Positions 8,221-22,316 of a stretch of 22,370 bases of DNA are shown piece by piece. The number at the start of each line of letters is the position of its first letter. The stretch's first letter is position 1. The notes beneath the pieces are model-generated. The model saw only the letters and a program-made list of their open reading frames with translations. It made no database searches and was not told the origin of the DNA. The DNA is from a virus: IMG/VR virus record IMGVR_UViG_3300022777_000060; one strand, 5' to 3'. A program made the translations under genes and the position numbers.

Positions 8221-10056
8221 TCAATTGACTTTCCATACCATTTCTTTCGAAGCATTTCCAAAGTGGCTTTGGCTTTTTGCCAATGGCCACTTTTTCTTTT
8301 TGTTGGTGATCATATCTTCGCGAACTTTCAAAAACAGATTTTCAAAACGAGAAAGTCCGGTCAAGAAGTCGTTCCAATTTGAAAGATCGTGGCCATTCGA
8401 ATAGATCTCTGTATTTGGATAAGGTGGAGAAGTAAATGTCATGTCCGGATCTGGAAGAGACTTCGGTGAAATTGATTGTTGTTTGTCATTGATTACTTGA
8501 AATTCTCCTGGAAGCTCTTTTCCCAATGATTCAAGTTCCTTACATGTTTCTGGATTTTGTTCGATGCCAATATATATTCCATTTGGATAAAGGCTTTTAA
8601 ATCCAAGAAGACGAGATCCAAATCCCGCACATGGATCAATGACGGTTGGATTGTTTGTTTCCAGAAAGAAGTCATAAATGGAAGCAGCAACAAGAGGTTT
8701 CAGAAAACTAACAACATACCTCATTGACGCCATTCCTCTTCGAATGGATTTCATTGAAATGTCAAACACTTCTCCACGTTCATTGAGTCCAATTCGGTCT
8801 CGAATCACTTTTCTCAATTTCAAACGATCATTCCAACATTCAACTGGACTGTCAGAGTTGGTGAATGACGTTTTCCAAAAGCTTTCAAACCTTGATTTCA
8901 GCAGCGAATTTCCGACTGACCAAATGTTATTTCGAAATCCTGTTTTCGTTCGAGTTCGAGACAAATCATAATTCCGAATTTCATCGACCACCTCGTTCAA
9001 ATTTCTCTTTGAAGATGGCATCGGAAAATCATCAATTACATCTTGACAAAAAGTTGTAATTGATCCAGAAATGTCTCGAAGCTTTTGATCATCAGATACT
9101 TGATTTAGATAATTCGAAGAGATAATGACATCTGAATCTGACCACTCATATGAAGCATCATAAGCAAATTTCGGAATGTCATTTATAGACTGAATACTGT
9201 CGATACTGTGCGGCCGAATTCGAAATAAAGGATCGATTGCTTGATCTTTTTTGTAATCGTTTATGACTCCACGAAGACGTTTATTGTTAAGTTTTGTTTT
9301 ATCATCTGGGTGCCAGTATTCTCCATCCACTTCAACATACCATTGTTTGTCCGGAAAGTAGAAGTCGACAATTCCGGCTTTCGTTTCATGTTGTTTTTCG
9401 CAATCAAATTTTGAATAGAACTCTTTTTCAGGTTTTGTCTCTTTTGTTTGTGGAGACCCTCTGGAAATGGCCTTTTTTTTCATTTCTTTTTTTGATCTCT
9501 GATCATGGTGTCGGCCATACATTGGGTTGTTTTTTCCTTTTGTATTATGACCATTTACATAATCTCGAAAATACGGATGATTATGTACAAAAGAAGTTTT
9601 TTCTCCACAGCCGCATTCGCATTTTGGATGATTGCCGTTATGAATATACTTGACGGCGTATTTCTCTTTTGATGAAATCTTGTGATCTTTTTTTAGATGA
9701 TATGTTAGTTTTTTTTCACTAGCCAGTTTTTCGTTGCAAATTCGGCATTCAACGTCGTCATATTTTTGTTCGCGAAGTTTCTTTTTCCGAAACTCAGAAT
9801 GATTTTCAACATACTCATCAACTGTCAATCCATGACTGTGTTTGAGATGAGTCGCCATTCCAACTGAAGAATACGTGTTTTCACAAATCTCACATTCTAC
9901 ATTTGAGGTTTTCCTTTCTCCTTTTGACGAACGATCTTTTCGAAATTCACCAAATTGACTTACATATTTTTCTATGGAGATTTCATGACTGTGTTTGATG
10001 TGATTTGGAAATCCTTGTGGAGAAAATTCGTCATCGCACATTTCACATTCAATCAT
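8221..10056 (-). CDS. fusion: 3x C2H2-like Zn fingers + NUMOD3-like + Vsr/DUF559-like PD-(D/E)XK nuclease + amino-DNA methyltransferase
   Basis: CxxC..HxKxxH x3; PKCECGCG..NGHN..NNPMYG; TKPE..VDFY..VEVDGEYWH..KD; IDPCAGFG (motif I) and TSPPY (motif IV). Confidence 0.85.
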   Translation of the reverse strand: MIECEMCDDEFSPQGFPNHIKHSHEISIEKYVSQFGEFRKDRSSKGERKTSNVECEICENTYSSVGMATHLKHSHGLTVDEYVENHSEFRKKKLREQKYDDVECRICNEKLASEKKLTYHLKKDHKISSKEKYAVKYIHNGNHPKCECGCGEKTSFVHNHPYFRDYVNGHNTKGKNNPMYGRHHDQRSKKEMKKKAISRGSPQTKETKPEKEFYSKFDCEKQHETKAGIVDFYFPDKQWYVEVDGEYWHPDDKTKLNNKRLRGVINDYKKDQAIDPLFRIRPHSIDSIQSINDIPKFAYDASYEWSDSDVIISSNYLNQVSDDQKLRDISGSITTFCQDVIDDFPMPSSKRNLNEVVDEIRNYDLSRTRTKTGFRNNIWSVGNSLLKSRFESFWKTSFTNSDSPVECWNDRLKLRKVIRDRIGLNERGEVFDISMKSIRRGMASMRYVVSFLKPLVAASIYDFFLETNNPTVIDPCAGFGSRLLGFKSLYPNGIYIGIEQNPETCKELESLGKELPGEFQVINDKQQSISPKSLPDPDMTFTSPPYPNTEIYSNGHDLSNWNDFLTGLSRFENLFLKVREDMITNKKKKWPLAKSQSHFGNASKEMVWKVN

Positions 10057-10178: not shown

Positions 10179-11948
10179 TTATACCCGGTCTTGATTTCCA
10201 ATAATTACGAGCCCGTAGAACTCTGGCCTGACGATCCGCTTCGCGTAGCGCGTCATGACTCCACGTCGTGGCGTGAAGTTGTTTGGATCATACACAATAG
10301 GAGTCATCATGAGTGGCACGTAAGGTGCGTACACTGCGCCGGTTTCAAGGAAGTTCTCACCTCGGAATCCGACGAGCATGATGTCCTCAAGCATGTAAGG
10401 GTTCTTGTAAACCTGGAAACGGTTGTAGAGCGTACCAACTCGCTGAACGCCCATAGCGAAGTTGAACTCGTCACCGCCCGTGTCTACGCGATATCCTTCA
10501 ATGCTCTCAAGGATTGTAGCAACGTCAGGGGAGCAGACGATGAAGTTCGCTCCACCACGCATTGTCTTCTGGTGGATTCGGTTGCTTACACGCTGGATCT
10601 TGTTTCCAAGGGTCTCGAACCACTCACTCTTCGTTCCCGTGTGAGTGCCAAGATCCTCAAAGTTTCCAGTGTTCGGGTTGTACTCGTATCCAGGAAGTGC
10701 GCTCCAGTACTCCTTGGTAAGCGCGTTCTGAATGAGCATGTCAAGGATCTCAAGGTCAATCTCCATGCTGATGTACTCACTGAGCATCGATGTCAGCTCA
10801 GCCTCAGCGTCAATGGAGTGATAAGCGTTGAGGTCCTGTGCAAGCTCCGGAGTCCAGACTGCCTTGAGCTTACGGGTCTTCGCAACAATCGGCTGCTGCT
10901 CAAGATCGAAGTCGATCTCTGGAATGTCCAGAATCTCGTAGGTCTCGTTCTGGAGACTGTCAGGTCCGTGCGTGCTTCCGCCAGCGACGTTAGGGTTAGG
11001 AGATTGATCCTCAAAATCACCCCTGTCGAAGTCTTGTGGCTGCTGGTGCCAGATTACCGTCACTTCGGAAGGTGGGGTATCAATCGTGTTTGGAATAGTA
11101 GTTCCATCCGGAGTAGTACTTCCACTGTCACCAGATGTGATGCTACTATCAAACTCAACGACGAACTCGACTTCGCTCACGTCAGATCCCGGCCCTTGAT
11201 TACGTGGGTTCGGGTTCGATCCGTTGTTGTGGATCGTGTGGCGTGGGAAGAACTGAACGATGTCGTCGTGCTCGACAACAAACGCTCGAATACCTTCGAA
11301 GTCTGCCGTGTCATTCACGTTGACCGTAAGGAATCCGAGATTTGCGAGTCGCTGCTGGGTGCTTCCGTCACCGATTTGAAGAAGGTTCTCGTCACCCTCA
11401 AGCCGTTCCAAAAGGAACTCGCCAGCTGGAAGCTGACTTGCAAGTGTTGCATTCACAACGCTTGCGGAGTTGTCGGTGCGGTCGTTGATGGAGTATCCGA
11501 AGCGTCCTTCACCGTAAAGACCGCCCTCTGGCTCGTCCTCGACGGAAGTATCTCCATGAACGAAGTCACCAGAGTTGAACTGGGACTGGCTCGTTCCGTA
11601 CTTGAAGTCAAGGTAGAAGATAAGGCCGGACGGAAGGTTCATCGGCTGGACGGAAACAAACTCCTTCGCTACGATTTCACCGAAAATACGGCGAACGAGC
11701 GGAAGGGCGACTCCAGACCATTCCTCAGATCCCTCTGCGGTTCCGGTTCGAGTTGCCTCTTGAATAAGTTGGTTGTACTGGTTCTCAAGCAGGATAGACA
11801 CGCCGTGAACCTCGTGGTCATCCTCAAGGCCGTCAAGCAGCCCGGTCGGTGCCCATTTGTTCACAAGCTCGCGACTCTGTTCGAGAAGAGCCTTCTGAGG
11901 GGAGCTACCCTGCGAGAACTTGGAAAGATCAAGTTGAGTATTACTCAT
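10179..11948 (-). CDS. major capsid protein, T4 gp23-like
   Basis: LPLVRR, VSVQPMNLPSGLIFYL, AKTRKLKAVWTPELAQDLNAYHSIDAEAEL, YAPYVPL, PRRGVMTRY motifs. Confidence 0.97.
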   Translation of the reverse strand: MSNTQLDLSKFSQGSSPQKALLEQSRELVNKWAPTGLLDGLEDDHEVHGVSILLENQYNQLIQEATRTGTAEGSEEWSGVALPLVRRIFGEIVAKEFVSVQPMNLPSGLIFYLDFKYGTSQSQFNSGDFVHGDTSVEDEPEGGLYGEGRFGYSINDRTDNSASVVNATLASQLPAGEFLLERLEGDENLLQIGDGSTQQRLANLGFLTVNVNDTADFEGIRAFVVEHDDIVQFFPRHTIHNNGSNPNPRNQGPGSDVSEVEFVVEFDSSITSGDSGSTTPDGTTIPNTIDTPPSEVTVIWHQQPQDFDRGDFEDQSPNPNVAGGSTHGPDSLQNETYEILDIPEIDFDLEQQPIVAKTRKLKAVWTPELAQDLNAYHSIDAEAELTSMLSEYISMEIDLEILDMLIQNALTKEYWSALPGYEYNPNTGNFEDLGTHTGTKSEWFETLGNKIQRVSNRIHQKTMRGGANFIVCSPDVATILESIEGYRVDTGGDEFNFAMGVQRVGTLYNRFQVYKNPYMLEDIMLVGFRGENFLETGAVYAPYVPLMMTPIVYDPNNFTPRRGVMTRYAKRIVRPEFYGLVIIGNQDRV

Positions 11949-12026: not shown

Positions 12027-13622
12027 TTACTTGAGGTTAGCGAGCTTCTGGAAGCGATCCTTCAGGTCACTATTCTCGTTCAGGATTTGCTTCTGATCGT
12101 CGGATGGCGTCGTGGAACCACCTGTCTTCTCAGAACCAAGGCCACTTTCAAGTGCTTCAACAAGCTTTTCCTTCTTGTCGGACTTGCGGCTCTCGTTTAC
12201 CTGCTCGGTGGAGCCGTTCTTTTGCTTATTGAAGTTCTCGGCAAGAGTTGTGTAAATCAACTTTGCCTCACGAGTGTTGGAAGCGCGATCGAACGATTCG
12301 ATCACCTTCATCTTCTGACGGTCATTCAAGCCGAACTTCTTGAATAGCCGGTTCGTGTAGAGAAGCTTGCTGTTAATGAGATTCGTCTCATTGATCTTTT
12401 CTCGCAGGATTTTGATAGCCTGGCGATGCTTACCTAGCTCCTCTTTAAGCTCTTCGTTTTCGTGGCGAAGCTGCTCTGCTTCGTTGAGTTCGTCGACCGT
12501 CGATTCGTCCTCTTCAAGAAGAGCGGAAAGGTCGTACTCGATATCTTCCTCGTACATGTTCTCCGTGTCGTCGAGAGGCTGGTCAAGACCTTCGGTTCCG
12601 CTTCTCTCATCGGATCCGCCTCCCGGAGCCTCTGGATCATATCCACCTCCACCTACGTCAACACCCTCGCCAGCTTCGGCGTCGATGCCTGGATCGGTTT
12701 CGGTGTCATATGGACCGGAAACGTCAGCCATTCCATCCATGGCCTCACGGTCAGTGTCAGTAACCCCAAACTCGTTGAGGTCAACGTCAAAGACCGTCTC
12801 GTTTTCTTCCATAGAATCCATAGAGTCCATATCCATCATATCCATGAACTCTCCCTTGGACATATCCATGTGGTCCATGAATTCGCCCATAGACATGTTC
12901 TCCATATCCATAGAGTCCATGTCCATGTTGTCCATAGACTCACCTTCGTCAAGTACCTCAAGGAAGGCTTCGACCATTTCGTCTTCAAGCTCTTCTTGAA
13001 GCTCGGTTTCTTCTTCTAGTTCTTGTGCGATTTTGTTTACGTCGTCCATAATGGCAGATTGGTTATCTGATTCATATCCGTCCTCGAATTCTCCGGTGTC
13101 GAGCATGTCGTCGTCGTACATGTATTCGTTGTCGTCCGAAAGGTCGTCGGACGTATCTGGATTGTCGTGGCGGTCGTCCATTGACGCCGCTTCAAGGAAC
13201 TCCATCACACTTTCGAGATCGAGTTCATCTTGATCCGTGATTTCCTCCATTTCTTCTTCGTCTTCGGGCTCTTCTTCACCCTCTGGTTCCTCATCCCCGT
13301 CTTCGATGTCGACTTCAACGTCTTCGTCGTCGCCGTCACCATCAACGTCGGATTCGGTTTCACCTTCGTCGTCGATGTCGGAAAGGTCAAGCTCGACCTC
13401 ATCCTCTTCGCCTTCAGGATCTTCTTCGTAGTCCATCTCTTCGTCTTCGTCTCCCTCCATCTCTTGCTGGATGGTTTGAGAGAGCATCGACTGAAGCTTC
13501 GGAGTGAAAGCCTCTTCAAGATGGTCTTTTGCGTTTTCAATCGCTGTCTCACGGATCGTCTGTGCGTCAGCGACGGCCTCTCGGAAAAACTCCGAATCAA
13601 ATTCTTTGTTTTGTTCGCTCAT
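12027..13622 (-). CDS. prohead core/scaffold protein
   Basis: Directly upstream of the capsid gene; EAVADA..AIENAK..LEEAFTPKLQSML N-terminus, very acidic middle, coiled coil and LxE-rich C-terminus; start placed at ATG 13622. Confidence 0.8.
   Translation of the reverse strand: MSEQNKEFDSEFFREAVADAQTIRETAIENAKDHLEEAFTPKLQSMLSQTIQQEMEGDEDEEMDYEEDPEGEEDEVELDLSDIDDEGETESDVDGDGDDEDVEVDIEDGDEEPEGEEEPEDEEEMEEITDQDELDLESVMEFLEAASMDDRHDNPDTSDDLSDDNEYMYDDDMLDTGEFEDGYESDNQSAIMDDVNKIAQELEEETELQEELEDEMVEAFLEVLDEGESMDNMDMDSMDMENMSMGEFMDHMDMSKGEFMDMMDMDSMDSMEENETVFDVDLNEFGVTDTDREAMDGMADVSGPYDTETDPGIDAEAGEGVDVGGGGYDPEAPGGGSDERSGTEGLDQPLDDTENMYEEDIEYDLSALLEEDESTVDELNEAEQLRHENEELKEELGKHRQAIKILREKINETNLINSKLLYTNRLFKKFGLNDRQKMKVIESFDRASNTREAKLIYTTLAENFNKQKNGSTEQVNESRKSDKKEKLVEALESGLGSEKTGGSTTPSDDQKQILNENSDLKDRFQKLANLK
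12807..12935 (-). repeat. Met/Asp-rich low-complexity tract in the scaffold
   Basis: MDNMDMDSMDMENMSMGEFMDHMDMSKGEFMDMMDMDSMDSME: 16 Met in 43 aa. Confidence 0.9.
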
Positions 13623-13865: not shown

Positions 13866-14195
13866 TCACTTCATAATCTCAAGAAGTCGGCCGAAAAGTC
13901 CTGCAGGATCCGGCAACTTTGATGTTTCTTCAATCTTTCGGCCGTTGCTGTTAAGGTAGTGAACTTCCCCGCCCTGCATGACTCTGGCGGTAGCGGCTGC
14001 ACTTCCATTCCTTCGCGCTTCAACCTTCAACGCGTATCCGTAGTCTCCCATGTAGTTTTTCTCAATGAAAATGGTCGCGTTTGGAAGATACGGAAAGTCA
14101 TAAACGCCACTTCCGTTTGAGCCGCCAAGGTACTGCTCAAGATCTCTCTTGTAGTTTTCTAGTGCCGATTCCAGCAGGATCTGTTTGAACTTCAT
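13866..14195 (-). CDS. hypothetical head-module protein (MKFKQILLE N-terminus)
   Basis: TAATG coupling with the upstream gene. Confidence 0.75.
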   Translation of the reverse strand: MKFKQILLESALENYKRDLEQYLGGSNGSGVYDFPYLPNATIFIEKNYMGDYGYALKVEARRNGSAAATARVMQGGEVHYLNSNGRKIEETSKLPDPAGLFGRLLEIMK

Positions 14196-14887
14196 TATCG
14201 GTAAGCGGTTTGCCCGCCGGTTGCTCTTTCAACGAGTGCGTCAACAACTTGCTGTGGGCCGGTGTAACGTACTTTATCTCGTTTTGGCCTGCCGCCTTTG
14301 ATAGCAGAAGGCTCTTGAAAAACAACTTGCCCGCCTTCAATCTTCGCGCTTACAACGCTTTCACTGTCATTTCTATTTCGAAACACATTGACGAAGACGG
14401 CCATACCGCCCATCGGGTCAATGTGGAAGTGTAGTCCTTCGTATTCATAAGTGTCCATTCCAGTAGAAAGTCCGTTGTTCGCCAAATAGCGGTGAATGTC
14501 TTGCCCCGCCTTTGGCATTGATCCTTCCGTCGCTGGATCCACTGCTGCAGCGCCACCGGCTTCGTGAAGAATGGTCCGAATAGCTTTCCGAACCTCTGTA
14601 ATCTTCAAAAAGTCGGCGATCTTATCAGCGGCTCGATCTTTACTCACAGTTTCTTCTTTACTGCCAACGGAAACCTGGACGTTGCCGTGGCTCATTTCGC
14701 GAACATAAGCCCTCTGTCCGGTTCCAAACTCAATGTATTGGAGGTTCATATCCTCTTTCCCCCAGTCTGTGATTCGAAGACCGTGCTTCATCTTCAGCTT
14801 CTTTCGGATCCGCTGAAAGGTGGCAGGGTGGACCTCATTGAGTTCTTCCCGAATGATTTGTCGCAGCTTTTGCTCTGTTAGTTTCAT
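14195..14887 (-). CDS. putative internal head protein with MKLTE tag (two modules)
   Basis: MKLTEQKLRQIIREELNE; internal KITEVRKAIRTILHE. Confidence 0.75.
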   Translation of the reverse strand: MKLTEQKLRQIIREELNEVHPATFQRIRKKLKMKHGLRITDWGKEDMNLQYIEFGTGQRAYVREMSHGNVQVSVGSKEETVSKDRAADKIADFLKITEVRKAIRTILHEAGGAAAVDPATEGSMPKAGQDIHRYLANNGLSTGMDTYEYEGLHFHIDPMGGMAVFVNVFRNRNDSESVVSAKIEGGQVVFQEPSAIKGGRPKRDKVRYTGPQQVVDALVERATGGQTAYR

Positions 14888-14897
14888 CGTAGTTTGG

Positions 14898-15254
14898 TTA
14901 TGGCCATATTTTGTGAAAAGTGACGCTTTCGGTTGGCGTCATTGACTCTCGTGGATTATCAAAACTGCCCCAAATCTCTCCTGCGCTCGTCACGTCACCT
15001 CCCCTTGGATGCTTTTTGAAGAAGATCGCCTGAAAGTTGTTCATGTACCTATCGTTCACATCCGTTTGGCGCACGATTTTGTCTGTCATCGTGTCCCAAA
15101 GCTGGCCACCTCGCTTGCGGGTCATGTATGATCCTTCGTCTCCGAACTTATCTTTGAGGCGGCCGAAGTTCATGCGATCCTCTCCACGTGCTTCGGAAAG
15201 CCGTTCAATCTCTTCTCGAATAATAGTGCGAAGGTTGCTTTCGGTAAGTTTCAT
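14898..15254 (-). CDS. putative internal head protein with MKLTE tag
   Basis: MKLTESNLRTIIREEIERLSE. Confidence 0.75.
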   Translation of the reverse strand: MKLTESNLRTIIREEIERLSEARGEDRMNFGRLKDKFGDEGSYMTRKRGGQLWDTMTDKIVRQTDVNDRYMNNFQAIFFKKHPRGGDVTSAGEIWGSFDNPRESMTPTESVTFHKIWP

Positions 15255-15257
15255 GTG

Positions 15258-15848
15258 TTATCGTTTGCGTTTTTCACCAGTCACTTCCCAGTTGTTTGCT
15301 TTCAGCCACCGGGAAGCCTTGGCGAGTGATTCAAAGGACTTGTCGTACTTCATCGTGCTGAAGATATAGTCGTTGCCATAGGTGTAAAACTCTCCGCGTC
15401 CGACCTTCGGTGGAGCATCGGGGCTTGAAAGCGTAAGAGCCGTTTGCTCGACTCTATCGACCTTACCAAGCTGCCTCTCAGTCGGCTCTCCAAGCTCGGT
15501 GAGTTTTTGGATCTCTTGCTCTACGATTCTTCGGAGCTTGCTTTCAGTAAGCTTCTCTGTGCCTGAAGCCATTTTGGATTCATCCTTTCCTCGCCAATCG
15601 GTGGTGCCCAAATACTCGTCTTTCAGAGAAGCGCAAAACGCTTCGGGGTCGTCGAACTTATCTTCAACCTCGTCCATGCAGGCACTGAAAAAGCCTTCTT
15701 CACCTTCCTGCCCCGTAAGGTTTTGGGCGAAGCTCTCGACGGAGTCTTCATCCCAACCGTCCGGCAAGTTGTCCCAACCGATATCGTCTTCACGAAGAAC
15801 CTCTTCGTGGATTATCTTCCGAAGCCTGCAAGGCGTGAGTTTTTGCAT
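15258..15848 (-). CDS. putative internal head protein with two tag copies
   Basis: MQKLTPCRLRKIIHEEVLRE and internal KLTESKLRRIVEQEIQKLTE. Confidence 0.75.
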   Translation of the reverse strand: MQKLTPCRLRKIIHEEVLREDDIGWDNLPDGWDEDSVESFAQNLTGQEGEEGFFSACMDEVEDKFDDPEAFCASLKDEYLGTTDWRGKDESKMASGTEKLTESKLRRIVEQEIQKLTELGEPTERQLGKVDRVEQTALTLSSPDAPPKVGRGEFYTYGNDYIFSTMKYDKSFESLAKASRWLKANNWEVTGEKRKR

Positions 15849-15849
15849 A

Positions 15850-16005
15850 TCACTGTATCTTTATAGTCGTGTACTCGTCGGTTTGCTCTTCAATCTGAAC
15901 CTTCACCTTCTTCTCGGGAAGGAACTCACCGTCAATGAAGAGCATGTCGTGTCCGTTGAAGTTCCAGCTTGTACCATCGAAGACTTCAGGCTCTTCCTCA
16001 CCTAC
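15850..16005 (-). CDS. -1 frame C-terminal extension of the S8 protease (51 aa)
   Basis: After the A12 run: VGEEEPEVFDGTSWNFNGHDMLFIDGEFLPEKKVKVQIEEQTDEYTTIKIQ*, ending 1 nt before the next ATG. Confidence 0.7.
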   Translation of the reverse strand, partial: VGEEEPEVFDGTSWNFNGHDMLFIDGEFLPEKKVKVQIEEQTDEYTTIKIQ

Positions 16006-16895
16006 TTTTTTTTTTTTGAGACAGCATCTTCAAGAAGCAAGATTCCGGCTCCGTCTTTTTTCACGCCGGGAATGTCATTTGCGGTGTCCATGAACCGCTG
16101 ATCCCAACTCTGTCGCTTCGACTGAAGAGCGTTCGCGTAAGCTGCAGCAACGTAAGGTGCGGCAAAACTGGTTCCTGAAGCCTTGATGAAGTCGCTGTCA
16201 AGAACAGTTCCCATCGAAGCCTCTGTCGACTTAGCCATCTTCACGTCTTTTCCGACTGCCGCAACATCCGGGTTGCCTTTCTCCGGATCGAAGCTAGAGA
16301 ACCGAGTTGGAGCTTCGCTTTCATCAATAGCTCCTGCACTGAACGCGTTTTTCGCTGTCGCTGGACTCCCGCCGTCCCCGCCAGTGTTTCCAGCAGCAAC
16401 CACGTCTGCTACGCCCATATCCATAAGGCCGTCGTGAAGCCGGTTGATTTGTGGAATGTCACGCCGGGCTCCCCAGCTCATATTCACGATATCGATTTCG
16501 TTTCCGTGATCCAAGAGCCATTGGTATGCCCTTTCGATTGCTGGAAACCCTCCAGTGCCGTTATCTCCAAAGATCCGGACGCTGTATAGCTCCACGTTCT
16601 CAACGTTTTTCGCTACAATCGAGCCGACACCTGTTCCGTGTCCCACGACGTCGACGCCTTCGTTTCCACTGCGAGTTGCGTCGTACCTCTTGGTTACGTC
16701 AACGCCTTCGAACCACGGGTGATTTTGCTCTGCAGCATCATCGATGCCAGAGTCCATGATAGCGACGGTAATCTTCTCGCCTCTGGTCTGTTGGGGCCGA
16801 ATCTCGTGAATGCGCCGCGCTTCTTCTGGCGTAATCACTGACCCGTGGCTGGAAGTGGTAACTGCTTCATCAATGCGAATCTCAAACTCTTTCAT
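16002..16895 (-). CDS. subtilisin-like S8 serine protease
   Basis: VAIMDSGID, GHGTGVG, VNMSWG, AAGN, SGTSFAAP catalytic motifs; no signal peptide visible. Confidence 0.93.
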   Translation of the reverse strand: MKEFEIRIDEAVTTSSHGSVITPEEARRIHEIRPQQTRGEKITVAIMDSGIDDAAEQNHPWFEGVDVTKRYDATRSGNEGVDVVGHGTGVGSIVAKNVENVELYSVRIFGDNGTGGFPAIERAYQWLLDHGNEIDIVNMSWGARRDIPQINRLHDGLMDMGVADVVAAGNTGGDGGSPATAKNAFSAGAIDESEAPTRFSSFDPEKGNPDVAAVGKDVKMAKSTEASMGTVLDSDFIKASGTSFAAPYVAAAYANALQSKRQSWDQRFMDTANDIPGVKKDGAGILLLEDAVSKKKK

Positions 16896-16914
16896 AATGG
16901 TTGGTTACTTTTGT

Positions 16915-17247
16915 TTATGGTTGTGCCATGAACTCGGCGTCAATCTTTTCTGCGTTTCCACGTTGGATTTGCCTCTTTACCCATTCGTCATCGATTTCGC
17001 CGCGAACAGGTCGGCCGCTGGAAAATCCAAGAATGCGTTCGACGCTAATCCGGTCGCCTCTTCTCACAATGTCAACAGCAAGCGGTTCTCGCTCTCCGTG
17101 TCGTGAGTTCGGGTTTGGCAGCTTGTATACCTCTCCACGCCCTTCAGCCGATCGGCGGCCGCCAACTCCGGTTCGTGCGGGTGCTTCCGCGAGCTTTGAC
17201 AACTCTTCTCGAATAATGGATCGTAGTTTCGTTTCGGTAAGTTTCAT
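16915..17247 (-). CDS. putative internal head protein with MKLTE tag
   Basis: MKLTETKLRSIIREELSKLAE. Confidence 0.75.
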   Translation of the reverse strand: MKLTETKLRSIIREELSKLAEAPARTGVGGRRSAEGRGEVYKLPNPNSRHGEREPLAVDIVRRGDRISVERILGFSSGRPVRGEIDDEWVKRQIQRGNAEKIDAEFMAQP

Positions 17248-17261
17248 CGTTTGTTGTTGAT

Positions 17262-17645
17262 TTACAGTGCAGAGACTCTTGTGGAACGTTCAATGACGAC
17301 TCGAACTTTGTCGGCGTCGGCATTCACGTCCAGTTGTGCGCGTACGTATTTTCCAAGCAACGGGATTTCAACAGGACTGACCGATTCTTGAGCGTCAGCG
17401 GATTTCGTGTCACTAATGTCCACCTCTCGGGTGCTTTCCGTCGGCCCGTCAATCGTTTGCTCAATCGTGAGAGTCGCGCTTACTGAACTTCCAGCAGTCT
17501 GCGCGATTACATATCCAGTGACAGAGCTGTGCCCCGCCGCTGGTTTCCAGTTGGACTCGAAAGTCTTGCCGCTTGATACATTCTCACGGTTTAGCTCCAT
17601 AAGGGAGTCTCGCGGCAAAAATGAGTCGACGCTTGAGGTAGGCAT
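17262..17645 (-). CDS. hypothetical beta-rich protein, possibly virion-associated
   Basis: Ser/Thr/Val-rich alternating pattern; position in the head module. Confidence 0.6.
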   Translation of the reverse strand: MPTSSVDSFLPRDSLMELNRENVSSGKTFESNWKPAAGHSSVTGYVIAQTAGSSVSATLTIEQTIDGPTESTREVDISDTKSADAQESVSPVEIPLLGKYVRAQLDVNADADKVRVVIERSTRVSAL

Positions 17646-17739
17646 ATTCTATTCAATAAAGTTTAGTCGTTCAAGATTTTTCTTTGCGAGAAAACGCAAC
17701 CATTTTGTTGATTCTTATCGTGGAATTACTTCCTTCATA

Positions 17740-18846
17740 TCAGTTCAGATACTTTTTTGGGATTCCAAGTTTTCGTCCAACCTTCACAAACTGCTTGTTG
17801 TGTGTCGGGTTATTCGCCTGTGCAAGCACAAAGTGAATGAGTTCATGCTTGATCACTGACTTTAAGTATTCAACGTCTTTCGAAAATGCCTGCGGGTGAA
17901 CGTCAATGATTCCGTAGTCGGTGATATCGGTTTTGTTTGTGTTGTGCCCGACCTTGCCCGGAGGAAGATTTATGCTTGAAACTCCAAATGACACGTAGGG
18001 AATGTTCTTGACTTCATTTCCCGTCACGTCTTTGTAAGCTCTGACAACATCCGGAAGAAACTTGTGCGCAACTTTGGTTATGACAGCAGACTTCTTCTTT
18101 CGTTTCTTGAGATTTTGAATAACGTCAGAGTAATCGTAGCCGTCTGTTTGAAGTATTTCAGCAACTCGAATCGTCCATCCGAGAGTTCTTTGCCAGTGAT
18201 CGGGACTACCATACGTCCGATCAAACTTTGAAAAATCAAGGTCGCGAGTTGAGTAGATGGTCGTGTTGAGTGTCCAAACGTCGTCGTGAAGAATCGAATG
18301 GCAGTTGATGGCAACTGGAGCATTCATCTCTGGAACCACGAGCCGCCAATCCTTTCCGTCCATATCTTCACGGGTTGACGTGTCGTATTTGTACCATCCT
18401 GCGCTCTCTATGCCAAGCTCTTCGGCCACTTTCGCAAGCTCATAATGAAAAAGCTCGATGCCGTCCCAACTCGGCCCGTAATAGTCGTGTTGAGTTTGCC
18501 AGTGAGTGAGAACGTCCCGAATCTGTTGCGCCTTCGCAGAGTCTGCGTGAATATCTTCTACGTAGTGTTTCATCACGTAGAAGTCTTTCTTCGGAGCATA
18601 GATCGTGTTTTCCGTTCCCTTAATCTTTGCCCTGTACCCGATGATCTGATTGAACTTCGTGTAAACGCCAGTAATCTTGACCATCTTCCCCCGCTTATCA
18701 GCGAGCACTTCATTGGCGTTTTCGTTTATCTGAGCTTCCTTGCCGACGTGTGAGTGATCGGTTCGAAGGTCTCGCTGGATATCAACTTCAAGTGGAAAGT
18801 TCCAGTCACCGATCTCTCTATTTTGTAGATACTCAGATATTTTCAT
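17740..18846 (-). CDS. multidomain protein with C-terminal SprT-like zinc metalloprotease
   Basis: VIKHELIH...THNKQF...LG (HExxH plus third His). Confidence 0.7.
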   Translation of the reverse strand: MKISEYLQNREIGDWNFPLEVDIQRDLRTDHSHVGKEAQINENANEVLADKRGKMVKITGVYTKFNQIIGYRAKIKGTENTIYAPKKDFYVMKHYVEDIHADSAKAQQIRDVLTHWQTQHDYYGPSWDGIELFHYELAKVAEELGIESAGWYKYDTSTREDMDGKDWRLVVPEMNAPVAINCHSILHDDVWTLNTTIYSTRDLDFSKFDRTYGSPDHWQRTLGWTIRVAEILQTDGYDYSDVIQNLKKRKKKSAVITKVAHKFLPDVVRAYKDVTGNEVKNIPYVSFGVSSINLPPGKVGHNTNKTDITDYGIIDVHPQAFSKDVEYLKSVIKHELIHFVLAQANNPTHNKQFVKVGRKLGIPKKYLN

Positions 18847-18850
18847 ATTG

Positions 18851-19102
18851 TCAACTCAAATGCTGTTCTGCTTTCCACCACTGATTTTCGGCGGCATATT
18901 TTTTCGCGTTGTGCTTTTTGCGTTTGCGTTCTTCGCGACGCTTTTTGGAAGGCTTTGTGTAATACTGGTTCTTCTTCCATTTGAGCATTCGCTTACACTT
19001 TCTCACGCGCCGGTCGAAAACTTCAAGTGCTTTTTCGACGTCATCGTTTTTCACTTCTACGCCGTAAGCGTTGTTGTAATTTGCTTTGTTACGATCTCCC
19101 AT
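18851..19102 (-). CDS. rpsU: phage-encoded ribosomal protein bS21
   Basis: VEVKNDDVEKALEVFDRRVRK...KKNQYYTKPSKKRR matches the bS21 signature; start placed at ATG 19102 because the longer ORF overlaps the upstream gene. Confidence 0.85.
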   Translation of the reverse strand: MGDRNKANYNNAYGVEVKNDDVEKALEVFDRRVRKCKRMLKWKKNQYYTKPSKKRREERKRKKHNAKKYAAENQWWKAEQHLS

Positions 19103-19124
19103 GTTTATATAGACAGATTTTGAT

Positions 19125-19385
19125 TCATTCTTCAGTTCGATTCTGCGATTGTCGTTGAGTTTGCGATTTCGGCGAGCCAAGCTTGATGCCTTGGTTCGCA
19201 AAGTGCTCAAAAGAGTTTCCTGCAACGTAAATCGCGAAGAGCCACTTCGAGAAGTTTACCCACTGTTCGGGCGGCAGCAGCCCCCAATAGAAAAAGAGAG
19301 TTGCCGAAACATACCCGACTAGTGTAACGTGGAACTTGCGTGACGTGAGCTTTTCCCACGCAAGATCCCGAATCTCTTCTTTCAC
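19125..19385 (-). CDS. small 2-TM membrane protein, holin-like
   Basis: KLTSRKF followed by two hydrophobic segments, YVAGNSFEH and a polar tail; GTG start coupled to the upstream stop. Confidence 0.5.
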   Translation of the reverse strand: MKEEIRDLAWEKLTSRKFHVTLVGYVSATLFFYWGLLPPEQWVNFSKWLFAIYVAGNSFEHFANQGIKLGSPKSQTQRQSQNRTEE

Positions 19386-19657
19386 TCTTCTTGTAGGTCT
19401 TTGGCAATGATTCGTGCATCTCCGAGTGCGTCCAAAAGTTCTTTCACCTCTTTTCGCCCAAGTTCGCTGTACTCCAGCTCAAGCCCAATACCCTCTGCCG
19501 CGTGAAGCATTGAACGAATGTGCATCAGTCCCACATCCGAATCGTCAGATGCCTTTTCAAATGCTTCATCGGCAACCTTTTGGTACTCTCGGCTAAGTTT
19601 GTAGCCGCTCATTTCTTCTCGAATGATTCGTCGTAGCTTTTCTTCTGTGAGTTTCAT
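19382..19657 (-). CDS. putative internal head protein with MKLTE tag
   Basis: MKLTEEKLRRIIREE. Confidence 0.75.
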   Translation of the reverse strand: MKLTEEKLRRIIREEMSGYKLSREYQKVADEAFEKASDDSDVGLMHIRSMLHAAEGIGLELEYSELGRKEVKELLDALGDARIIAKDLQEE

Positions 19658-20298
19658 CGGCTCTGTGTTTGCTGGTATTTGCGTTCAAGCTGGCTGTCTC
19701 CGAGCACGTACCCGTTGAAGATGGTTCGAAGCGTGTGGTTGGAGGGATCCTGTGGATCCCTGGACTCGTCTCTAATGACGTGACGAATGAACTTGTCTTT
19801 GTCAGCTAGATTGAGCATCTTCTGCCTGTCAAACTCAACTCTTTGCTCTGAAAGGATTCCCTTCAACTCTTCCCGCACGAGTCCCCGAAGTTGAGTCTCG
19901 GTAACTTGAACGGATTCATTGATGGTGTCGGACTTTCCTTCTTCCGCACCGCCGACGTCGAAGTATCGGTTGAACTTCATTCCGATGTCGTCATAAAGAG
20001 CGGTCAGCCGGTCCTGGTGCTTCTGAACTTTATCAGCTTCTTTCTTGAACTTGCGAACCTTCTTCTCAATCTCTTTGAGATTGCGGTTCACCGTCACCGA
20101 ATCGAAGCTGTTCTCTTTCTCGTTCAAATAGCGTTTCGCATACTCAGTGATTGCGGCGAACTTCTTCGCGATTTTCCGCAGATCCTTCTCTTGGTATACC
20201 GCTTTCCCGTATTCGTCAAACTTTTTCAGCTCGTTGTACAGAACCCTTTTTTCGTCTTCACTGAGCTTTTTGTGATCTTCAAACCAACTGTCGTCCAT
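19654..20298 (-). CDS. coiled-coil head-module protein with internal tag
   Basis: Helical N-terminal domain, then INE^SVQVTETQLRGLVREELKGILSE. Confidence 0.75.
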   Translation of the reverse strand: MDDSWFEDHKKLSEDEKRVLYNELKKFDEYGKAVYQEKDLRKIAKKFAAITEYAKRYLNEKENSFDSVTVNRNLKEIEKKVRKFKKEADKVQKHQDRLTALYDDIGMKFNRYFDVGGAEEGKSDTINESVQVTETQLRGLVREELKGILSEQRVEFDRQKMLNLADKDKFIRHVIRDESRDPQDPSNHTLRTIFNGYVLGDSQLERKYQQTQSR

Positions 20299-20309
20299 AG
20301 GTCTTTGTT

Positions 20310-20750
20310 TTATCCGTCAAGTTGTGTAAGCCTTCGGCCGTCAAATCGCCAGTCCCAGATGCTTTCGGAACCTTCTGGCGGCTCTTCGATAGAGTATCCT
20401 TGTTCGTCGGCGTAGTCTTTCACTTGCCGCAGCACTCGCTGTTCATCGTTTCCTCGAAACGTGCGCTCGATTTCGGCGTCTTCATTGCCTGAAGCGATCA
20501 GCCCAACTTTAACTCGGCCGACCCCTTTCGTCGCTTCCAAAACTACTTCACGAGCGGCAGCACGAAGTTTGTGCTCGACCAGCTTTCGGTCGTCTTCGGA
20601 GTACTCATACAGCTCCCATGCGGCGCGTTCAACGCCGTCTGGAAGCTCCTGGCGCTCTTCTAGCCGCCTCTTTGCTTTCTCCATACCCGGTGGCATGAAC
20701 GTCTCGAAAAGGTGGCTGAGCGTGCGGTCAATGAACGTTTCTTTATGCAT
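20310..20750 (-). CDS. hypothetical head-module protein
   Basis: Internal KLRAAAREVVLE; overlapping start. Confidence 0.7.
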   Translation of the reverse strand: MHKETFIDRTLSHLFETFMPPGMEKAKRRLEERQELPDGVERAAWELYEYSEDDRKLVEHKLRAAAREVVLEATKGVGRVKVGLIASGNEDAEIERTFRGNDEQRVLRQVKDYADEQGYSIEEPPEGSESIWDWRFDGRRLTQLDG

Positions 20751-21582
20751 CTCTTTGGAGTTTTTCGTTTATGCTGTTGTCCTCTGGAACTCTCGAAACT
20801 GCACGCTGAAGCGCATTGCGCTCTTCGGGAGACAGGGTGACGACTTCATTTTCCCGAAGCCGCCTGGCGAGAACGTCAATCGTGACGTTTTCAAGCCTCG
20901 ACATGTCGTCTTCGTGTAGCTGCCTGTATCTCAGTGCCCGCCGTGCGAGTCCATTTTCTTCTTCGGTAAGGTTGATTTCAAAGTTTCGCCTGCCTGAAAG
21001 AACCTCTTCAAGCTCGCTGTGAACCAACTCGCTCATCTTTCGCTGAATGGCAAGGCGAATGTTTTGCTCTTCATCCTCTTCCTCGTCTTTCTCTTCGCTC
21101 TCGTCAATGCGCTCGATAGGGGTTTCCCCAAGGTTTCGAGTGTATGCAGGTCGAACCTCACGAAGCGAATCGAACGGATCCTCAACGATGCCGTTTGCTT
21201 GCTCTTCGCTCATAGCGACTCGCCCTGCCCCCGGAATCGACATATCGGTGAAGCGGTAGTCCTTTTTGAACCCACGAGCGGTTTTGAGGCCGAATGTCGC
21301 GACGCAGTCTTCGTCGATCTGACTGAAGGCTTCGGCGTCGTCTTTCGGCCACGTCACCATGATGTTCAGGGGCTCGTTATAGAGCACCTTATCGAATCCA
21401 TCTTCTTCGTAGTGAGTGCGATATGTCGTGTTGTATAGCTCCGTCAAGTCCATCCAACTTCCGCTTCCTCCACTTACCCGGCCGCCAGTGTAATAGTTTG
21501 TTTGCGAAAACGGCGAGCGCACTGGAGTCGTGCGGTAGCTGGACTTGAGGTAGCTTTCAACAAGTCGTTTAAGGTCTGCCAT
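20743..21582 (-). CDS. hypothetical head-module protein
   Basis: MADLKRLVE N-terminus; acidic linker. Confidence 0.75.
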   Translation of the reverse strand: MADLKRLVESYLKSSYRTTPVRSPFSQTNYYTGGRVSGGSGSWMDLTELYNTTYRTHYEEDGFDKVLYNEPLNIMVTWPKDDAEAFSQIDEDCVATFGLKTARGFKKDYRFTDMSIPGAGRVAMSEEQANGIVEDPFDSLREVRPAYTRNLGETPIERIDESEEKDEEEDEEQNIRLAIQRKMSELVHSELEEVLSGRRNFEINLTEEENGLARRALRYRQLHEDDMSRLENVTIDVLARRLRENEVVTLSPEERNALQRAVSRVPEDNSINEKLQRDA

Positions 21583-21590
21583 AAGAGTGT

Positions 21591-22316
21591 TTATGTTATT
21601 TGTTTCCAGAACCCATAGAGGCGGTTCACAAGACGTTTTTCTTGATCGTCGCTTATGTTGTACTGCATTCGGGGCGGAATGTGTTCATCAAAAAACCAAT
21701 CCTTGAAGTCCCGAAAGTTTCCGTTCCAATCATCTTCCATTCTCGTATCCAAAAGGCCGGGAACTTCCAAGGTGTGTTCAAGTTGGGCGAGTCCGGACTG
21801 AAAGTATGCATTCACTTCAAAGGGGTCAGTGAAGTATGTTTCCCAACTCTTCTCTTTCCCCGGCTCGTAGGTTGCCAAGTCTTGTATGTTCGCTTCTGTT
21901 CGGCGGTCGTCAAGGTAATGAACGTACTCGTGCATGAAAATCTTCGCGACATCTTCAAGATTCTTTCTCATCACGAATCGTGCGTCGTCCTCTGTGTCAA
22001 AGATTGCTCTGCCCAAAACGTAAAGCCGAATCTCCGGGTCCCCTCCATTCTTTACATATTTGGCGTCGGCCGGATCCATTCCTTCAGCAAACCACTTGAT
22101 TTTCAATGGCGTTGAAGCTCGCTCTTCCAAGTCTGTAAACTGATCGATCCGAATAGATCTTGCAGCACCTTCTCGCTGAAACTCACCGCCGGACTTGAGA
22201 TAGTCAACGAGCTTTTTATATACGTCAAGTGCCTGTTCCCGAAAAAGCCGGTCTTGCTCGGCGTCTTCGTGAAGACGCCGGATTACTCGCTCTGTGACTT
22301 TCTCAACTAGCTTCAT
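21591..22316 (-). CDS. zincin-like metallopeptidase with tag-like N-terminus
   Basis: FMHEYVHYLD...YFTDPFEVNAY (HExxH plus downstream E); MKLVEKVTERVIRRLHE. Confidence 0.7.
   Translation of the reverse strand: MKLVEKVTERVIRRLHEDAEQDRLFREQALDVYKKLVDYLKSGGEFQREGAARSIRIDQFTDLEERASTPLKIKWFAEGMDPADAKYVKNGGDPEIRLYVLGRAIFDTEDDARFVMRKNLEDVAKIFMHEYVHYLDDRRTEANIQDLATYEPGKEKSWETYFTDPFEVNAYFQSGLAQLEHTLEVPGLLDTRMEDDWNGNFRDFKDWFFDEHIPPRMQYNISDDQEKRLVNRLYGFWKQIT

What the first reader, a model, noticed from the sequence alone, without database searches (positions are those of the whole stretch)
13866..22316. Modular MKLTExxLRxIIREE..LxE tag on many unrelated head-module proteins: candidate capsid cargo-loading system
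Seen: near-identical N-terminal peptides start the genes at 14887, 15254, 17247 and 19657 (MKLTE-x-[KN]LR-x-IIREE). A variant starts 15848. Internal copies occur at about 15513-15554, 19868-19912 and 14562-14606, and weaker forms in the genes at 14195, 20750, 21582 and 22316. Codons vary synonymously, so the peptide rather than the DNA appears to be conserved. The downstream domains look unrelated, and most tags end in L-x-E (LNE, LSE, LRE, LAE, LHE, LLE). Known: T4 prohead protease gp21 cleaves after (L/I)-x-E, and T4 internal proteins use a short N-terminal capsid-targeting sequence. Inference: a plug-in amphipathic helix docks diverse cargo onto the prohead core and is then cut off. Internal copies would create polyproteins releasing several effectors for injection. 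It could be usable for engineered protein packaging.
Basis: partly seen in the sequence, partly recalled or inferred. Interest (0 to 1): 0.8.

Follow-up and report, generated by a model that had tools for sequence, protein, structure and literature searches.

The report
Capsid-loading leader tag on phage proteins
Many unrelated small proteins of this uncultured T4-like phage begin with the same 15-21-residue helix, which most likely docks them into the forming phage head and is then cut off by the head protease, as phage T4's 10-residue capsid-targeting sequence is, but here on hundreds of protein families and with no bench test so far.

Summary
Six strict copies and one looser copy of K-[LI]-T-E-x-x-L-R-x-I-[IV]-R-E-E lie in minus-strand genes between 14.8 and 19.9 kb. 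None occurs elsewhere in six frames, and none in 300 shuffles. Two further internal copies are degenerate and visible only by homology.

The window is the head operon of a far-T4-like phage: gp23-type capsid protein, acidic scaffold, bS21. Syntenic close relatives carry a T4-type portal and a gp21-type (S77) prohead protease just beyond the window's right edge.

The tag is clade-wide. A related 484-kb phage has 28 copies, 43 IMG/VR stretches carry it, and 764 protein clusters match in public data. It sits at residue 1 in about 90% of cases, on about 80 unrelated small cargo families.

Three [LIVM]-x-E sites, the T4 gp21 cleavage motif, sit at fixed tag positions. The capsid protein keeps T4's cleavage site.

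Best reading (about 0.6): a sequence-distinct, scaled-up analogue of T4's capsid-targeting sequence. Packaging and cleavage are inferred, not shown.

- Internal copies are gene fusions.
- Three of the four "weak" N-terminal forms fail the profile; the fourth is really an internal copy.
- In relatives many tagged genes lie far from the head genes.

I found no paper describing the tag. This scan noted the same tag on other DNA (e1-5783507, e1-5631645).

The parts
14825..14887 (-). Canonical N-terminal tag (21 residues) of gene 14195-14887; L-N-E at tag positions 16-18
   Evidence: 38.7 bits with the tag profile
15192..15254 (-). Canonical N-terminal tag of gene 14898-15254; L-S-E at positions 19-21, followed by A
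   Evidence: 43.1 bits
17185..17247 (-). Canonical N-terminal tag of gene 16915-17247; L-A-E at positions 19-21, followed by A
   Evidence: 45.2 bits; tagged orthologues in L062 and L066
19595..19657 (-). Canonical N-terminal tag of gene 19382-19657; no third [LIVM]-x-E site
   Evidence: 43.3 bits; weak homologue of the tagged gene just upstream of the S77 protease in L001
15786..15848 (-). Variant N-terminal tag (P at position 5, H at 13) of gene 15258-15848; the variant is conserved in the L066 orthologue
   Evidence: (41.6 bits)
15495..15557 (-). Internal tag copy inside gene 15258-15848, with L-T-E at positions 19-21. It marks a fusion of two tagged modules. Relative P0003 has the same first module fused to a different second one.
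   Evidence: (33.7 bits)
19846..19911 (-). Internal tag copy inside gene 19654-20298; there is no start codon at this point. In relatives the N-terminal part is a separate 147-149 aa head-operon protein, and the C-terminal module belongs to a family of free 81-83 aa tagged proteins.
   Evidence: (33.1 bits)
14561..14605 (-). Degenerate internal tag at the junction of the two domains of gene 14195-14887. L-H-E followed by A-G-G is kept, and the model is disordered just after it.
   Evidence: alignment A5, with L107 and E109 invariant; AF2 model with pLDDT below 50 at residues 106-122
20526..20585 (-). Degenerate internal tag in gene 20310-20750 (residues 56-75); it aligns with residue 2 onward of a free tagged protein of L001
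   Evidence: E = 4e-11
10179..11948 (-). gp23-type major capsid protein. I62-Q63-E64 (11757-11765) aligns with the T4 gp23 L-T-E/A maturation site.
   Evidence: Pfam PF07068, 3.5e-81; alignment A4
12027..13622 (-). Acidic scaffold (gp22 position), the likely docking partner of the tag (inferred)
   Evidence: homologues directly upstream of the capsid gene in L001, L002, L056 and L066
16002..16895 (-). Untagged S8 subtilase inside the tagged-gene block; it is not the general partner of the tag
   Evidence: Pfam PF00082, 2e-33; absent from G007, G013, G037 and G019
21591..22316 (-). Edge gene of the window. In close relatives its orthologue lies one gene downstream of the S77 prohead protease.

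Best explanation
The motif is a detachable N-terminal leader of 15-21 residues. Residues 1-16 form a conserved amphipathic helix (M-K-[LI]-T-E-x-x-L-R-x-I-[IV]-R-E-E-[LI]). About 70% of copies then carry a [LIV]-x-E site near position 21, often followed by A, S or G.

It most likely works like the T4 capsid-targeting sequence. The helix docks the newly made protein onto the prohead core (scaffold or protease) of a T4-type head. The gp21-type S77 protease then cuts after Glu at one or more of three [LIVM]-x-E sites (E5, E14, about E21). The small cargo domain is freed inside the capsid and would later leave with the DNA.

The leader is portable. It heads about 80 unrelated cargo families. Tagged modules come and go between close relatives. 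Neighbouring tagged genes sometimes fuse, and then the inner tag decays while its L-x-E junction is kept.

Shown: the anatomy, the N-terminal position, the clade restriction, the head-operon context, the site enrichment and the fusions. Inferred: docking, cleavage, packaging and injection.
For: 1. T4-type head context. The capsid protein is gp23-like. Syntenic relatives at 56-68% identity have the order portal gp20, tagged genes, S77 protease, tagged gene, orthologue of the window's edge gene. LR756508.1 has an S77 protease amid tagged genes.
2. N-terminal position. The tag starts at residue 4 or earlier in 132 of 149 of the best-scoring public clusters, and directly after the start codon in nearly all of 130 locus hits.
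3. Cleavage logic. [LIVM]-x-E ends at tag position 5 in 80%, at position 14 in 90% and at positions 18-22 in about 70%, against 2% per position further downstream. In the representative set 74 of 167 tags have it exactly at position 21, and the next residue is A, S or G in 53%. The T4 gp23 L-T-E/A site aligns with an invariant Glu, with L, I or V two residues before it, in all 10 clade capsid proteins. T4 gp21 cuts after L/I-x-E (PMC9026906).
4. In fused genes the inner tag decays but L-x-E stays invariant, and the AF2 model is disordered right after it.
5. Cargo is small (median 123 aa) and diverse, mostly without any family; one NUDIX and one GNAT were found.
6. Clade link. All 10 tag-bearing IMG/VR contigs that hold a capsid gene hold this capsid lineage. 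All four large records hold S77.
7. The peptide, not the DNA, is conserved.
Against: There is no virion proteomics, no N-terminal sequencing and no cultured member.

The S77 protease is not inside the window; it is inferred from synteny.

In G013, G037 and G011 most tagged genes sit in islands more than 100 kb from the capsid gene, next to genes with no head role. T4's internal-protein genes also lie outside its head cluster, as I recall (not checked here), so this weakens the reading without refuting it.

The tag is longer than T4's 10-residue sequence, far more conserved, and shows no sequence similarity to it.

The E5 and E14 'sites' could simply be helix residues in a Glu-rich peptide. About 25-30% of tags lack a third site.

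Cultured relatives with the same capsid lineage lack the tag: Mel-JY01 and RM378 show none, and immuto has a single 16-bit match.

A similar helix recurs as a repeat in unrelated EF-hand-like cellular proteins, so short-motif resemblance can arise independently.
Confidence: 0.6

Rival explanations
1. The leader does send proteins to the prohead core and is cut there, but the tagged proteins are disposable core or scaffold accessories, like T4 gp67 and gp68. They would be degraded and expelled during maturation rather than delivered as effectors to the next host.
For: In the window's relatives, tagged genes of 63-136 aa lie on both sides of the S77 protease, between it and the portal or just after it, the region where T4 has genes 67 and 68. 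In L025, L027 and L039 a tagged gene directly follows the protease. Many cargo parts are acidic and helical, with no enzyme family.
Against: Eighty unrelated cargo families and up to 28 tagged genes per genome are far more than a core needs. Some cargo parts are folded enzymes or domains: NUDIX, GNAT and the two alpha/beta domains of the 230-aa protein. Tagged modules vary between close relatives, unlike core parts.
Confidence: 0.15
2. The helix is a general partner-binding or oligomerisation handle unrelated to the capsid. For example, it could be a shared adaptor that brings many small host-takeover proteins to one host or phage target, or a tag for a chaperone or for timed degradation.
For: In G013, G037 and G011 tagged genes form islands far from the head genes, next to an RNA-ligase-like and a thioredoxin-like gene; I judged both by eye from motifs in the printed sequences. 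Polar residues T4, R9, R13, E14 and E15 are nearly invariant, which suggests one specific partner. Tag-like helices occur as repeats in cellular EF-hand-like proteins.
Against: This reading does not explain the strict N-terminal position, the [LIVM]-x-E plus A/S/G pattern at position 21, or its retention at fusion junctions when the rest of the tag decays. It also does not explain the restriction to gp23/S77 phages or the placement between portal, protease and capsid genes.
Confidence: 0.17
3. The tag is a leader peptide for the neighbouring S8 subtilase, as in leader removal from lanthipeptide-like precursors. The variable parts would then be secreted or modified peptides.
For: An S8 subtilase sits in the middle of the tagged genes in the window and in L062 and L066. 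The layout is many tandem genes with a conserved leader and variable remainder.
Against: S8 is absent from G007, G013, G037 and G019. In LR756508.1 it lies about 110 kb from the tag cluster. No modification enzymes are nearby. Cargo parts are 60-350 aa folded domains, including NUDIX and GNAT, not short core peptides.
Confidence: 0.03
4. It is a nucleotide-level or translation-level signal: an A-rich start region favoured by ribosomes that carry the phage bS21, in a host without Shine-Dalgarno pairing.
For: The genes lack Shine-Dalgarno sequences and have A-rich leaders. A phage bS21 gene lies in the same operon.
Against: Codons vary synonymously while 15 residues stay fixed. Conservation reaches codon 16-21. 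Internal copies in fusion proteins keep the peptide.
Confidence: 0.03

Closest known systems
Phage T4 capsid-targeting sequence (CTS) of internal proteins IPI, IPII and IPIII (and Alt), removed by prohead protease gp21
   Same: Both are short N-terminal peptides shared by otherwise unrelated proteins of a phage with gp20, gp21, gp22 and gp23-type head genes. Both start M-K and end in hydrophobic-x-Glu. The protease family (S77) and the capsid protein's own cleavage site are conserved (PMC9026906).
   Different: There is no sequence similarity: the tag profile finds nothing in T4. The tag has 15-21 residues against 10, and far stronger conservation across a whole clade. It carries three candidate cleavage sites. 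Up to 28 or more tagged genes occur per genome and at least 764 clusters overall, against four or five proteins in T4. Function is untested here, whereas the T4 CTS was proven by fusions and mutants.
Propeptides of head and ejection proteins of giant phages phiKZ, 201phi2-1 and SPN3US, cut by gp21-like proteases (gp175, gp245)
   Same: Large phages load many proteins into the head. Propeptides are cut after Glu at a minimal three-residue motif, with redundant sites within a propeptide (PMC9026906; PMC7411985 and PMC10052503 listed).
   Different: Those propeptides are long and differ from protein to protein, and the motif is S/A-x-E. No single shared leader has been reported there. The capsid lineage is also different.
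Encapsulin cargo-loading peptides (from my own knowledge, not tested here)
   Same: A short terminal peptide on diverse cargo enzymes docks them inside an HK97-fold shell, and it is portable to foreign proteins.
   Different: It is usually C-terminal, extended rather than helical and not cleaved. The shell is a cellular nanocompartment without scaffold or protease.
Phage P1 Dar anti-restriction proteins packaged into the head (PMC9024508, listed; not read)
   Same: Non-structural proteins are loaded into a capsid and delivered with the DNA to counter host defence.
   Different: As far as I recall, packaging there depends on an ordered chain of partner proteins, not on one shared cleavable leader.

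Membership tests
T4-type capsid-targeting / gp21-processed propeptide system | The phage has the T4-type head set: gp23-like capsid protein, gp20 portal, gp22-like scaffold and S77 (gp21) protease | tested here: met
   The capsid protein (PF07068, 3.5e-81) and the scaffold are in the window. The portal (PF07230, 8e-68) and S77 (PF03420, 9e-33) are in syntenic close relatives L062 and L063, one gene beyond the window's edge gene. S77 itself is not inside the window.
T4-type capsid-targeting / gp21-processed propeptide system | One short N-terminal peptide shared by proteins that are otherwise unrelated | tested here: met
   the tag is at residue 1 in about 90% of cases, and there are 80 cargo clusters among 103.
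T4-type capsid-targeting / gp21-processed propeptide system | The peptide contains or ends in the protease's (L/I)-x-E site | tested here: met
   Sites at positions 5, 14 and about 21 are enriched 10-40 fold over background. L-x-E is invariant at a fusion junction. The capsid protein's site is conserved.
T4-type capsid-targeting / gp21-processed propeptide system | Sequence relatedness to the T4 CTS (the ten-residue IPII/IPIII leader) | tested here: not met
   The tag profile gives no match in the whole T4 genome. T4 leaders were read from the record. The likeness is therefore functional, not membership by descent.
T4-type capsid-targeting / gp21-processed propeptide system | Tagged proteins are present in virions with the leader removed | not testable with these tools
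   No cultured member exists. I found no proteomic data.
T4-type capsid-targeting / gp21-processed propeptide system | The leader alone suffices to load a foreign protein | not testable with these tools
   This needs a bench experiment.
EF-hand calcium-binding motif | The helix is followed by a 12-residue Asp/Gly-rich calcium loop and a second helix | tested here: not met
   No EF-hand family is found in any of 91 tagged proteins. Only unrelated long repeat proteins (P0023, P0056) hit S_100 or EF-hand_14.
RiPP-type leader peptide with S8 leader peptidase | The leader co-occurs with its peptidase and modification enzymes, and the cores are short | tested here: not met
   S8 is absent from 4 of 5 large tag-bearing records. 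Cargo parts are folded domains of 60-350 aa.

The most novel reading that the evidence does not exclude
The leader is a universal address label that marks the whole set of proteins a large, widespread clade of uncultured T4-like phages (probably of Bacteroidota) packs into its heads and injects with the DNA. The 764 or more tagged clusters would then be a ready-made catalogue of first-minute effectors, probably rich in anti-defence and host-takeover functions (a tagged NUDIX and a tagged GNAT are among them). The 15-21-residue leader would be a portable handle for loading foreign proteins into these capsids.
Probability: 0.35. Interest if true: 0.8.

Novelty: new variant of a known kind. Interest (0 to 1): 0.62.

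Why it matters
Injected phage proteins act before any phage gene is expressed. T4 IPI, for example, blocks a restriction enzyme. Such proteins are almost impossible to predict from sequence.

If this leader is a packaging signal, a single short profile would pick out the injected proteins of a whole clade of abundant, uncultured large phages. That is hundreds of unknown families, with up to 28 or more per genome. Their role in the arms race with host defences would then become directly testable.

It would also show that the T4 'CTS' principle has been scaled up in larger phage genomes. And it would offer a well-defined, highly conserved tag for protein loading into capsids.

Tried and rejected
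- tblastn of a 25-residue tag against cultured phages found only chance hits. Short queries are too weak, so I used a DNA pattern scan and profile searches instead.
- No whole genome is held for the window.
- An exact-match scan of metagenome contigs for the window's end found nothing. A protein-based scan then gave five syntenic relatives.
- The search for related loci in IMG/VR with the edge gene found nothing.
- PHROGs gave no family for any tagged protein, and Pfam gave none for the window's tagged proteins.
- The ESM Atlas gave only low-score short hits and a poor model.
- Foldseek of the AF2 model of the 230-aa protein against the PDB gave nothing better than E = 4e-3 at TM 0.19 (polo-box-like topology, not meaningful).
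- The T4 late-promoter word TATAAATA is absent from the window. CTATAAA lies just upstream of the capsid, bS21 and 15848 genes, but the cases are too few to call a promoter.
- Literature searches for the motif and for a shared leader in huge or T4-like phages found nothing.
- Rejected: the S8 subtilase as the tag's peptidase; an EF-hand reading; a nucleotide-level signal.

Full report
WHAT IS IN THE WINDOW

From 22316 down to 10179 the minus strand carries a tightly packed operon, with gaps of 2-15 nt or ATGA overlaps and no Shine-Dalgarno sequences. Its landmarks:
- A gp23-type major capsid protein at 10179-11948 (Pfam PF07068, 3.5e-81; PHROG 138 major head protein).
- A 530-575-residue acidic scaffold at 12027-13622, or to 13754 from an upstream GTG.
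- An S8 subtilase at 16002-16895.
- A SprT-like protein with an HExxH motif at 17740-18846.
- A ribosomal protein bS21 at 18851-19102.

The plus-strand block at 1-8 kb holds a GIY-YIG endonuclease, a cell-wall hydrolase and small unknown genes.

The nearest deposited phages by capsid protein are the 484-kb uncultured phage LR756508.1 (61%), Microcystis phage Mel-JY01 (51%), Flavobacterium immuto phages and Rhodothermus phage RM378. This is a 'far-T4' lineage. The window's contig is about 111 kb.

The pattern K-[LI]-T-[EP]-x-x-L-R-x-x-[IV]-x-x-E occurs six times and a looser form once. All copies are in minus-strand genes between 14.8 and 19.9 kb, and none occurs elsewhere in six frames. Shuffled translations gave 0 hits in 300.

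Four copies follow the ATG directly (14887, 15254, 17247, 19657). One is a variant after M-Q (15848). Two are internal (15557, 19911).

The four canonical copies differ at 34 synonymous and 20 non-synonymous codon pairs, so the peptide is what is conserved.

The gene starting at 20750 has a degenerate copy at residues 56-75, not at its start. The N-termini of the genes starting at 14195, 21582 and 22316 score below zero with a tag profile.

THE TAG IS A CLADE-WIDE FEATURE

- In 41 kb around the capsid gene of LR756508.1 about two dozen genes start with the motif or close variants. A profile of the seven window copies finds 28 places in the whole 484-kb record. All are on the capsid strand, and 26 lie between 143 and 243 kb.
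- A degenerate DNA pattern for the motif hit 43 stretches of IMG/VR, almost always directly after a start codon.
- A profile of 42 tags searched against 1.84 billion cluster representatives gave 764 clusters at E <= 0.001. Of the 150 best, 132 carry the tag at residue 4 or earlier, 18 of these have a second internal copy, and 16 have it only internally, mostly with a Met just before it.
- A few long cellular repeat proteins with EF-hand-like hits also match (P0008, P0023, P0056). I take these as look-alikes.
- Cultured relatives essentially lack the tag: Mel-JY01, RM378, cyanophage S-ShM2 and T4 show nothing credible, and immuto has a single 16-bit match.
- I found no paper that describes the motif.
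- This scan has noted the same tag on other DNA and read it the same way (e1-5783507, e1-5631645). That is not independent evidence.

CARGO

The parts after the tag, 103 sequences from the window and fetched loci, fall into 80 BLAST clusters with 66 singletons. The median protein length is 123 aa and the maximum 365 aa.

Of 91 tagged proteins only four have Pfam families: one NUDIX, one GNAT, one HTH_63 and one DUF5710. By sequence motif, the NUDIX is the gene at L044:8080, which lies about 1.8 kb downstream of the capsid gene with another tagged gene between them.

An AF2 model of the 230-aa window protein has mean pLDDT 77. It shows:
- a low-confidence N-terminal helix, residues 5-19;
- two alpha/beta domains;
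- a disordered linker at residues 106-122.
It has no meaningful PDB neighbour.

LINK TO THE T4-TYPE HEAD AND ITS PROTEASE

The window holds no S77 protease. Five ENA contigs encode orthologues of the window's edge gene (56-68% identity) in the same gene order. L062 reads as follows:
1. portal gp20 (PF07230, 8e-68)
2. a 294-aa gene
3. a tagged gene
4. a 194-aa gene
5. a 63-aa tagged variant
6. S77 prohead protease with an intein (PF03420, 1.3e-26)
7. a tagged gene
8. the edge-gene orthologue
9. orthologues of the window genes at 20743-21582, 20310-20750 and 19654-20298 (N-terminal part only), an 86-90-aa membrane protein (no BLAST match, same position) and bS21
10. an orthologue of the 17262-17645 gene and an unmatched 86-aa gene
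11. the tagged orthologue of 16915-17247
12. the S8 subtilase

L063 has an intein-free S77 (8.9e-33). LR756508.1 likewise has an intein-bearing S77 amid tagged genes.

Among 39 tag-bearing IMG/VR records, all fragments, 9 hold S77 and 10 hold a capsid gene, always of this lineage at 49-66% identity. All three records over 200 kb hold both. In L025, L027 and L039 a tagged gene directly follows the protease.

By contrast S8 is absent from G007, G013, G037 and G019 and lies far from the tags in LR756508.1.

CLEAVAGE LOGIC

T4 gp21 cuts after Glu in L/I-x-E, and the first ten residues of IPIII suffice for head targeting (PMC9026906, read). The T4 record confirms the shared ten-residue start of ipII and ipIII and the gp24 and gp23 N-termini.

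In an alignment of ten clade capsid proteins with T4 gp23, the T4 site L-T-E/A falls on an invariant Glu (E64 in the window). L, I or V stands two residues before it and A, S or T after it. The protease specificity is therefore probably retained.

Within 109 unique tags, [LIVM]-x-E ends at these positions:

| Tag position | Share of tags |
|---|---|
| 5 | 80% |
| 14 | 90% |
| 18-22 | about 70% |
| per position further downstream | 2% |

In the independent representative set, 129 of 167 tags have such a site at positions 18-29, 74 of them exactly at position 21. The following residue is A, S or G in 53%.

The leader thus has a conserved helix (positions 1-16), then a processing site, then small residues.

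INTERNAL COPIES ARE GENE FUSIONS

- **Gene 14195-14887.** It is [tag-domain A][degenerate tag-domain B]. Domain A exists as a free 111-aa tagged protein (P0001). Domain B exists as free 134-141-aa tagged proteins (P0153, P0088, P0154, P0155). At the junction the docking part has decayed, but L-x-E is invariant across all seven sequences, and the model is disordered right after it.
- **Gene 19654-20298.** It joins a conserved untagged head-operon protein, which is 147-149 aa and separate in L062 and L064-L066, to a tagged module from a family of free 81-83-aa proteins. There is no start codon at the junction.
- **Gene 15258-15848.** It has two tags. Its relative P0003 keeps the first module but carries a different second one.
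- **Gene 20310-20750.** From residue 56 it aligns with a free tagged protein.

Fusion proteins could be separated by the protease, but that is inference.

WHAT SPEAKS AGAINST THE READING, OR IS OPEN

- In G013, G037 and G011 the tagged genes form tandem islands more than 100 kb from the capsid gene, among genes with no head role.
- The tag is not similar in sequence to the T4 CTS.
- About a quarter of tags lack the third site.
- There is no expression, proteomic or biochemical evidence.

VERDICT

The best explanation is a cleavable prohead-targeting leader that works like the T4 CTS, at a confidence of about 0.6. It differs from the T4 CTS in sequence, is longer, and is used on a far larger scale.

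The main rivals are:
- the same targeting, but for disposable core proteins rather than injected cargo;
- a partner-binding helix unrelated to the capsid.

The S8-leader, EF-hand and nucleotide-signal readings are rejected on the tests above. I rate it a new variant of a known kind.

Noticed in passing
window 16002-16895 (-); L066:3405-5519: An untagged S8 subtilase sits inside the head operon among the tagged genes. It is conserved in close relatives L062 and L066. In L066 it is interrupted by an intein with a Vsr/DUF559-type endonuclease. Its role in a T4-type head operon is unexplained.
   Followed up: partly
L001:4568-6292; L062:4385-6115; L064:290-2020: The gp21-type S77 prohead protease carries an intein with a LAGLIDADG domain in L001 and L062 (Pfam); L064's 576-aa form has the same length and N-terminus but was not scanned. 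L063 has the intein-free 220-aa form.
   Followed up: partly
window 13866-14195 (-); L001:25784-31663: A second, shorter N-terminal motif, M-[KR]-[FL]-K-x-[IL]-L-x-E, resembles T4's ten-residue CTS in style. It starts the window gene just upstream of the scaffold and five of six ~250-280-aa paralogues downstream of the capsid gene in LR756508.1. Those share a Y-R-G-T-like motif and might be ADP-ribosyltransferase-like; this was not tested. An earlier scan note (e1-5908547) describes a similar short motif elsewhere.
   Followed up: no
window 18851-19102 (-): Ribosomal protein bS21 is encoded inside the head operon on the same strand as the capsid gene, as in Mel-JY01. In the bS21 phages of PMC9723584 it is on the opposite strand.
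   Followed up: partly
window 17740-18846 (-) and 21591-22316 (-): Two head-operon proteins carry H-E-x-x-H motifs. One is a weak SprT-like hit (E = 3e-4). The other is the conserved edge gene, whose motif was used as a search pattern. They may be metallopeptidases of unknown role.
   Followed up: no
P0008, P0023, P0056 (public proteins): Long cellular proteins, two of them with N-terminal membrane segments, carry several spaced repeats of a tag-like helix (L-T-x-[DE]-[DE]-L-R-x-[IL]-I-x-[DE]-E-L): 5-6, 9 and 14 matched stretches. P0023 and P0056 give weak EF-hand/S-100 profile hits; P0008 has no Pfam hit. This shows the helix type can recur outside phages.
   Followed up: partly
window 8221-10056 (-); L001:23627-25561: A low-GC (35-38%) 611-aa gene lies right after the capsid gene. 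It has BED/C2H2 zinc fingers, a NUMOD3 motif and a Vsr-like segment. Its C-terminal part looks methyltransferase-like by eye (no family hit). It is conserved at 44% identity at a similar position in LR756508.1, 2 kb past the capsid gene after one intervening 570-aa gene, and is probably a mobile element.
   Followed up: no
window 11958, 15865, 19109 (minus strand): The word CTATAAA lies 7-17 nt upstream of the capsid, bS21 and 15848 start codons. The T4 late word TATAAATA is absent. This may be a late promoter core, but there are too few cases to judge.
   Followed up: partly
L044:8080-8532: A NUDIX hydrolase carries the leader as a ~22-residue N-terminal extension. It sits about 1.8 kb downstream of the capsid gene, after another tagged gene, and is a concrete candidate for a packaged enzyme.
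   Followed up: partly
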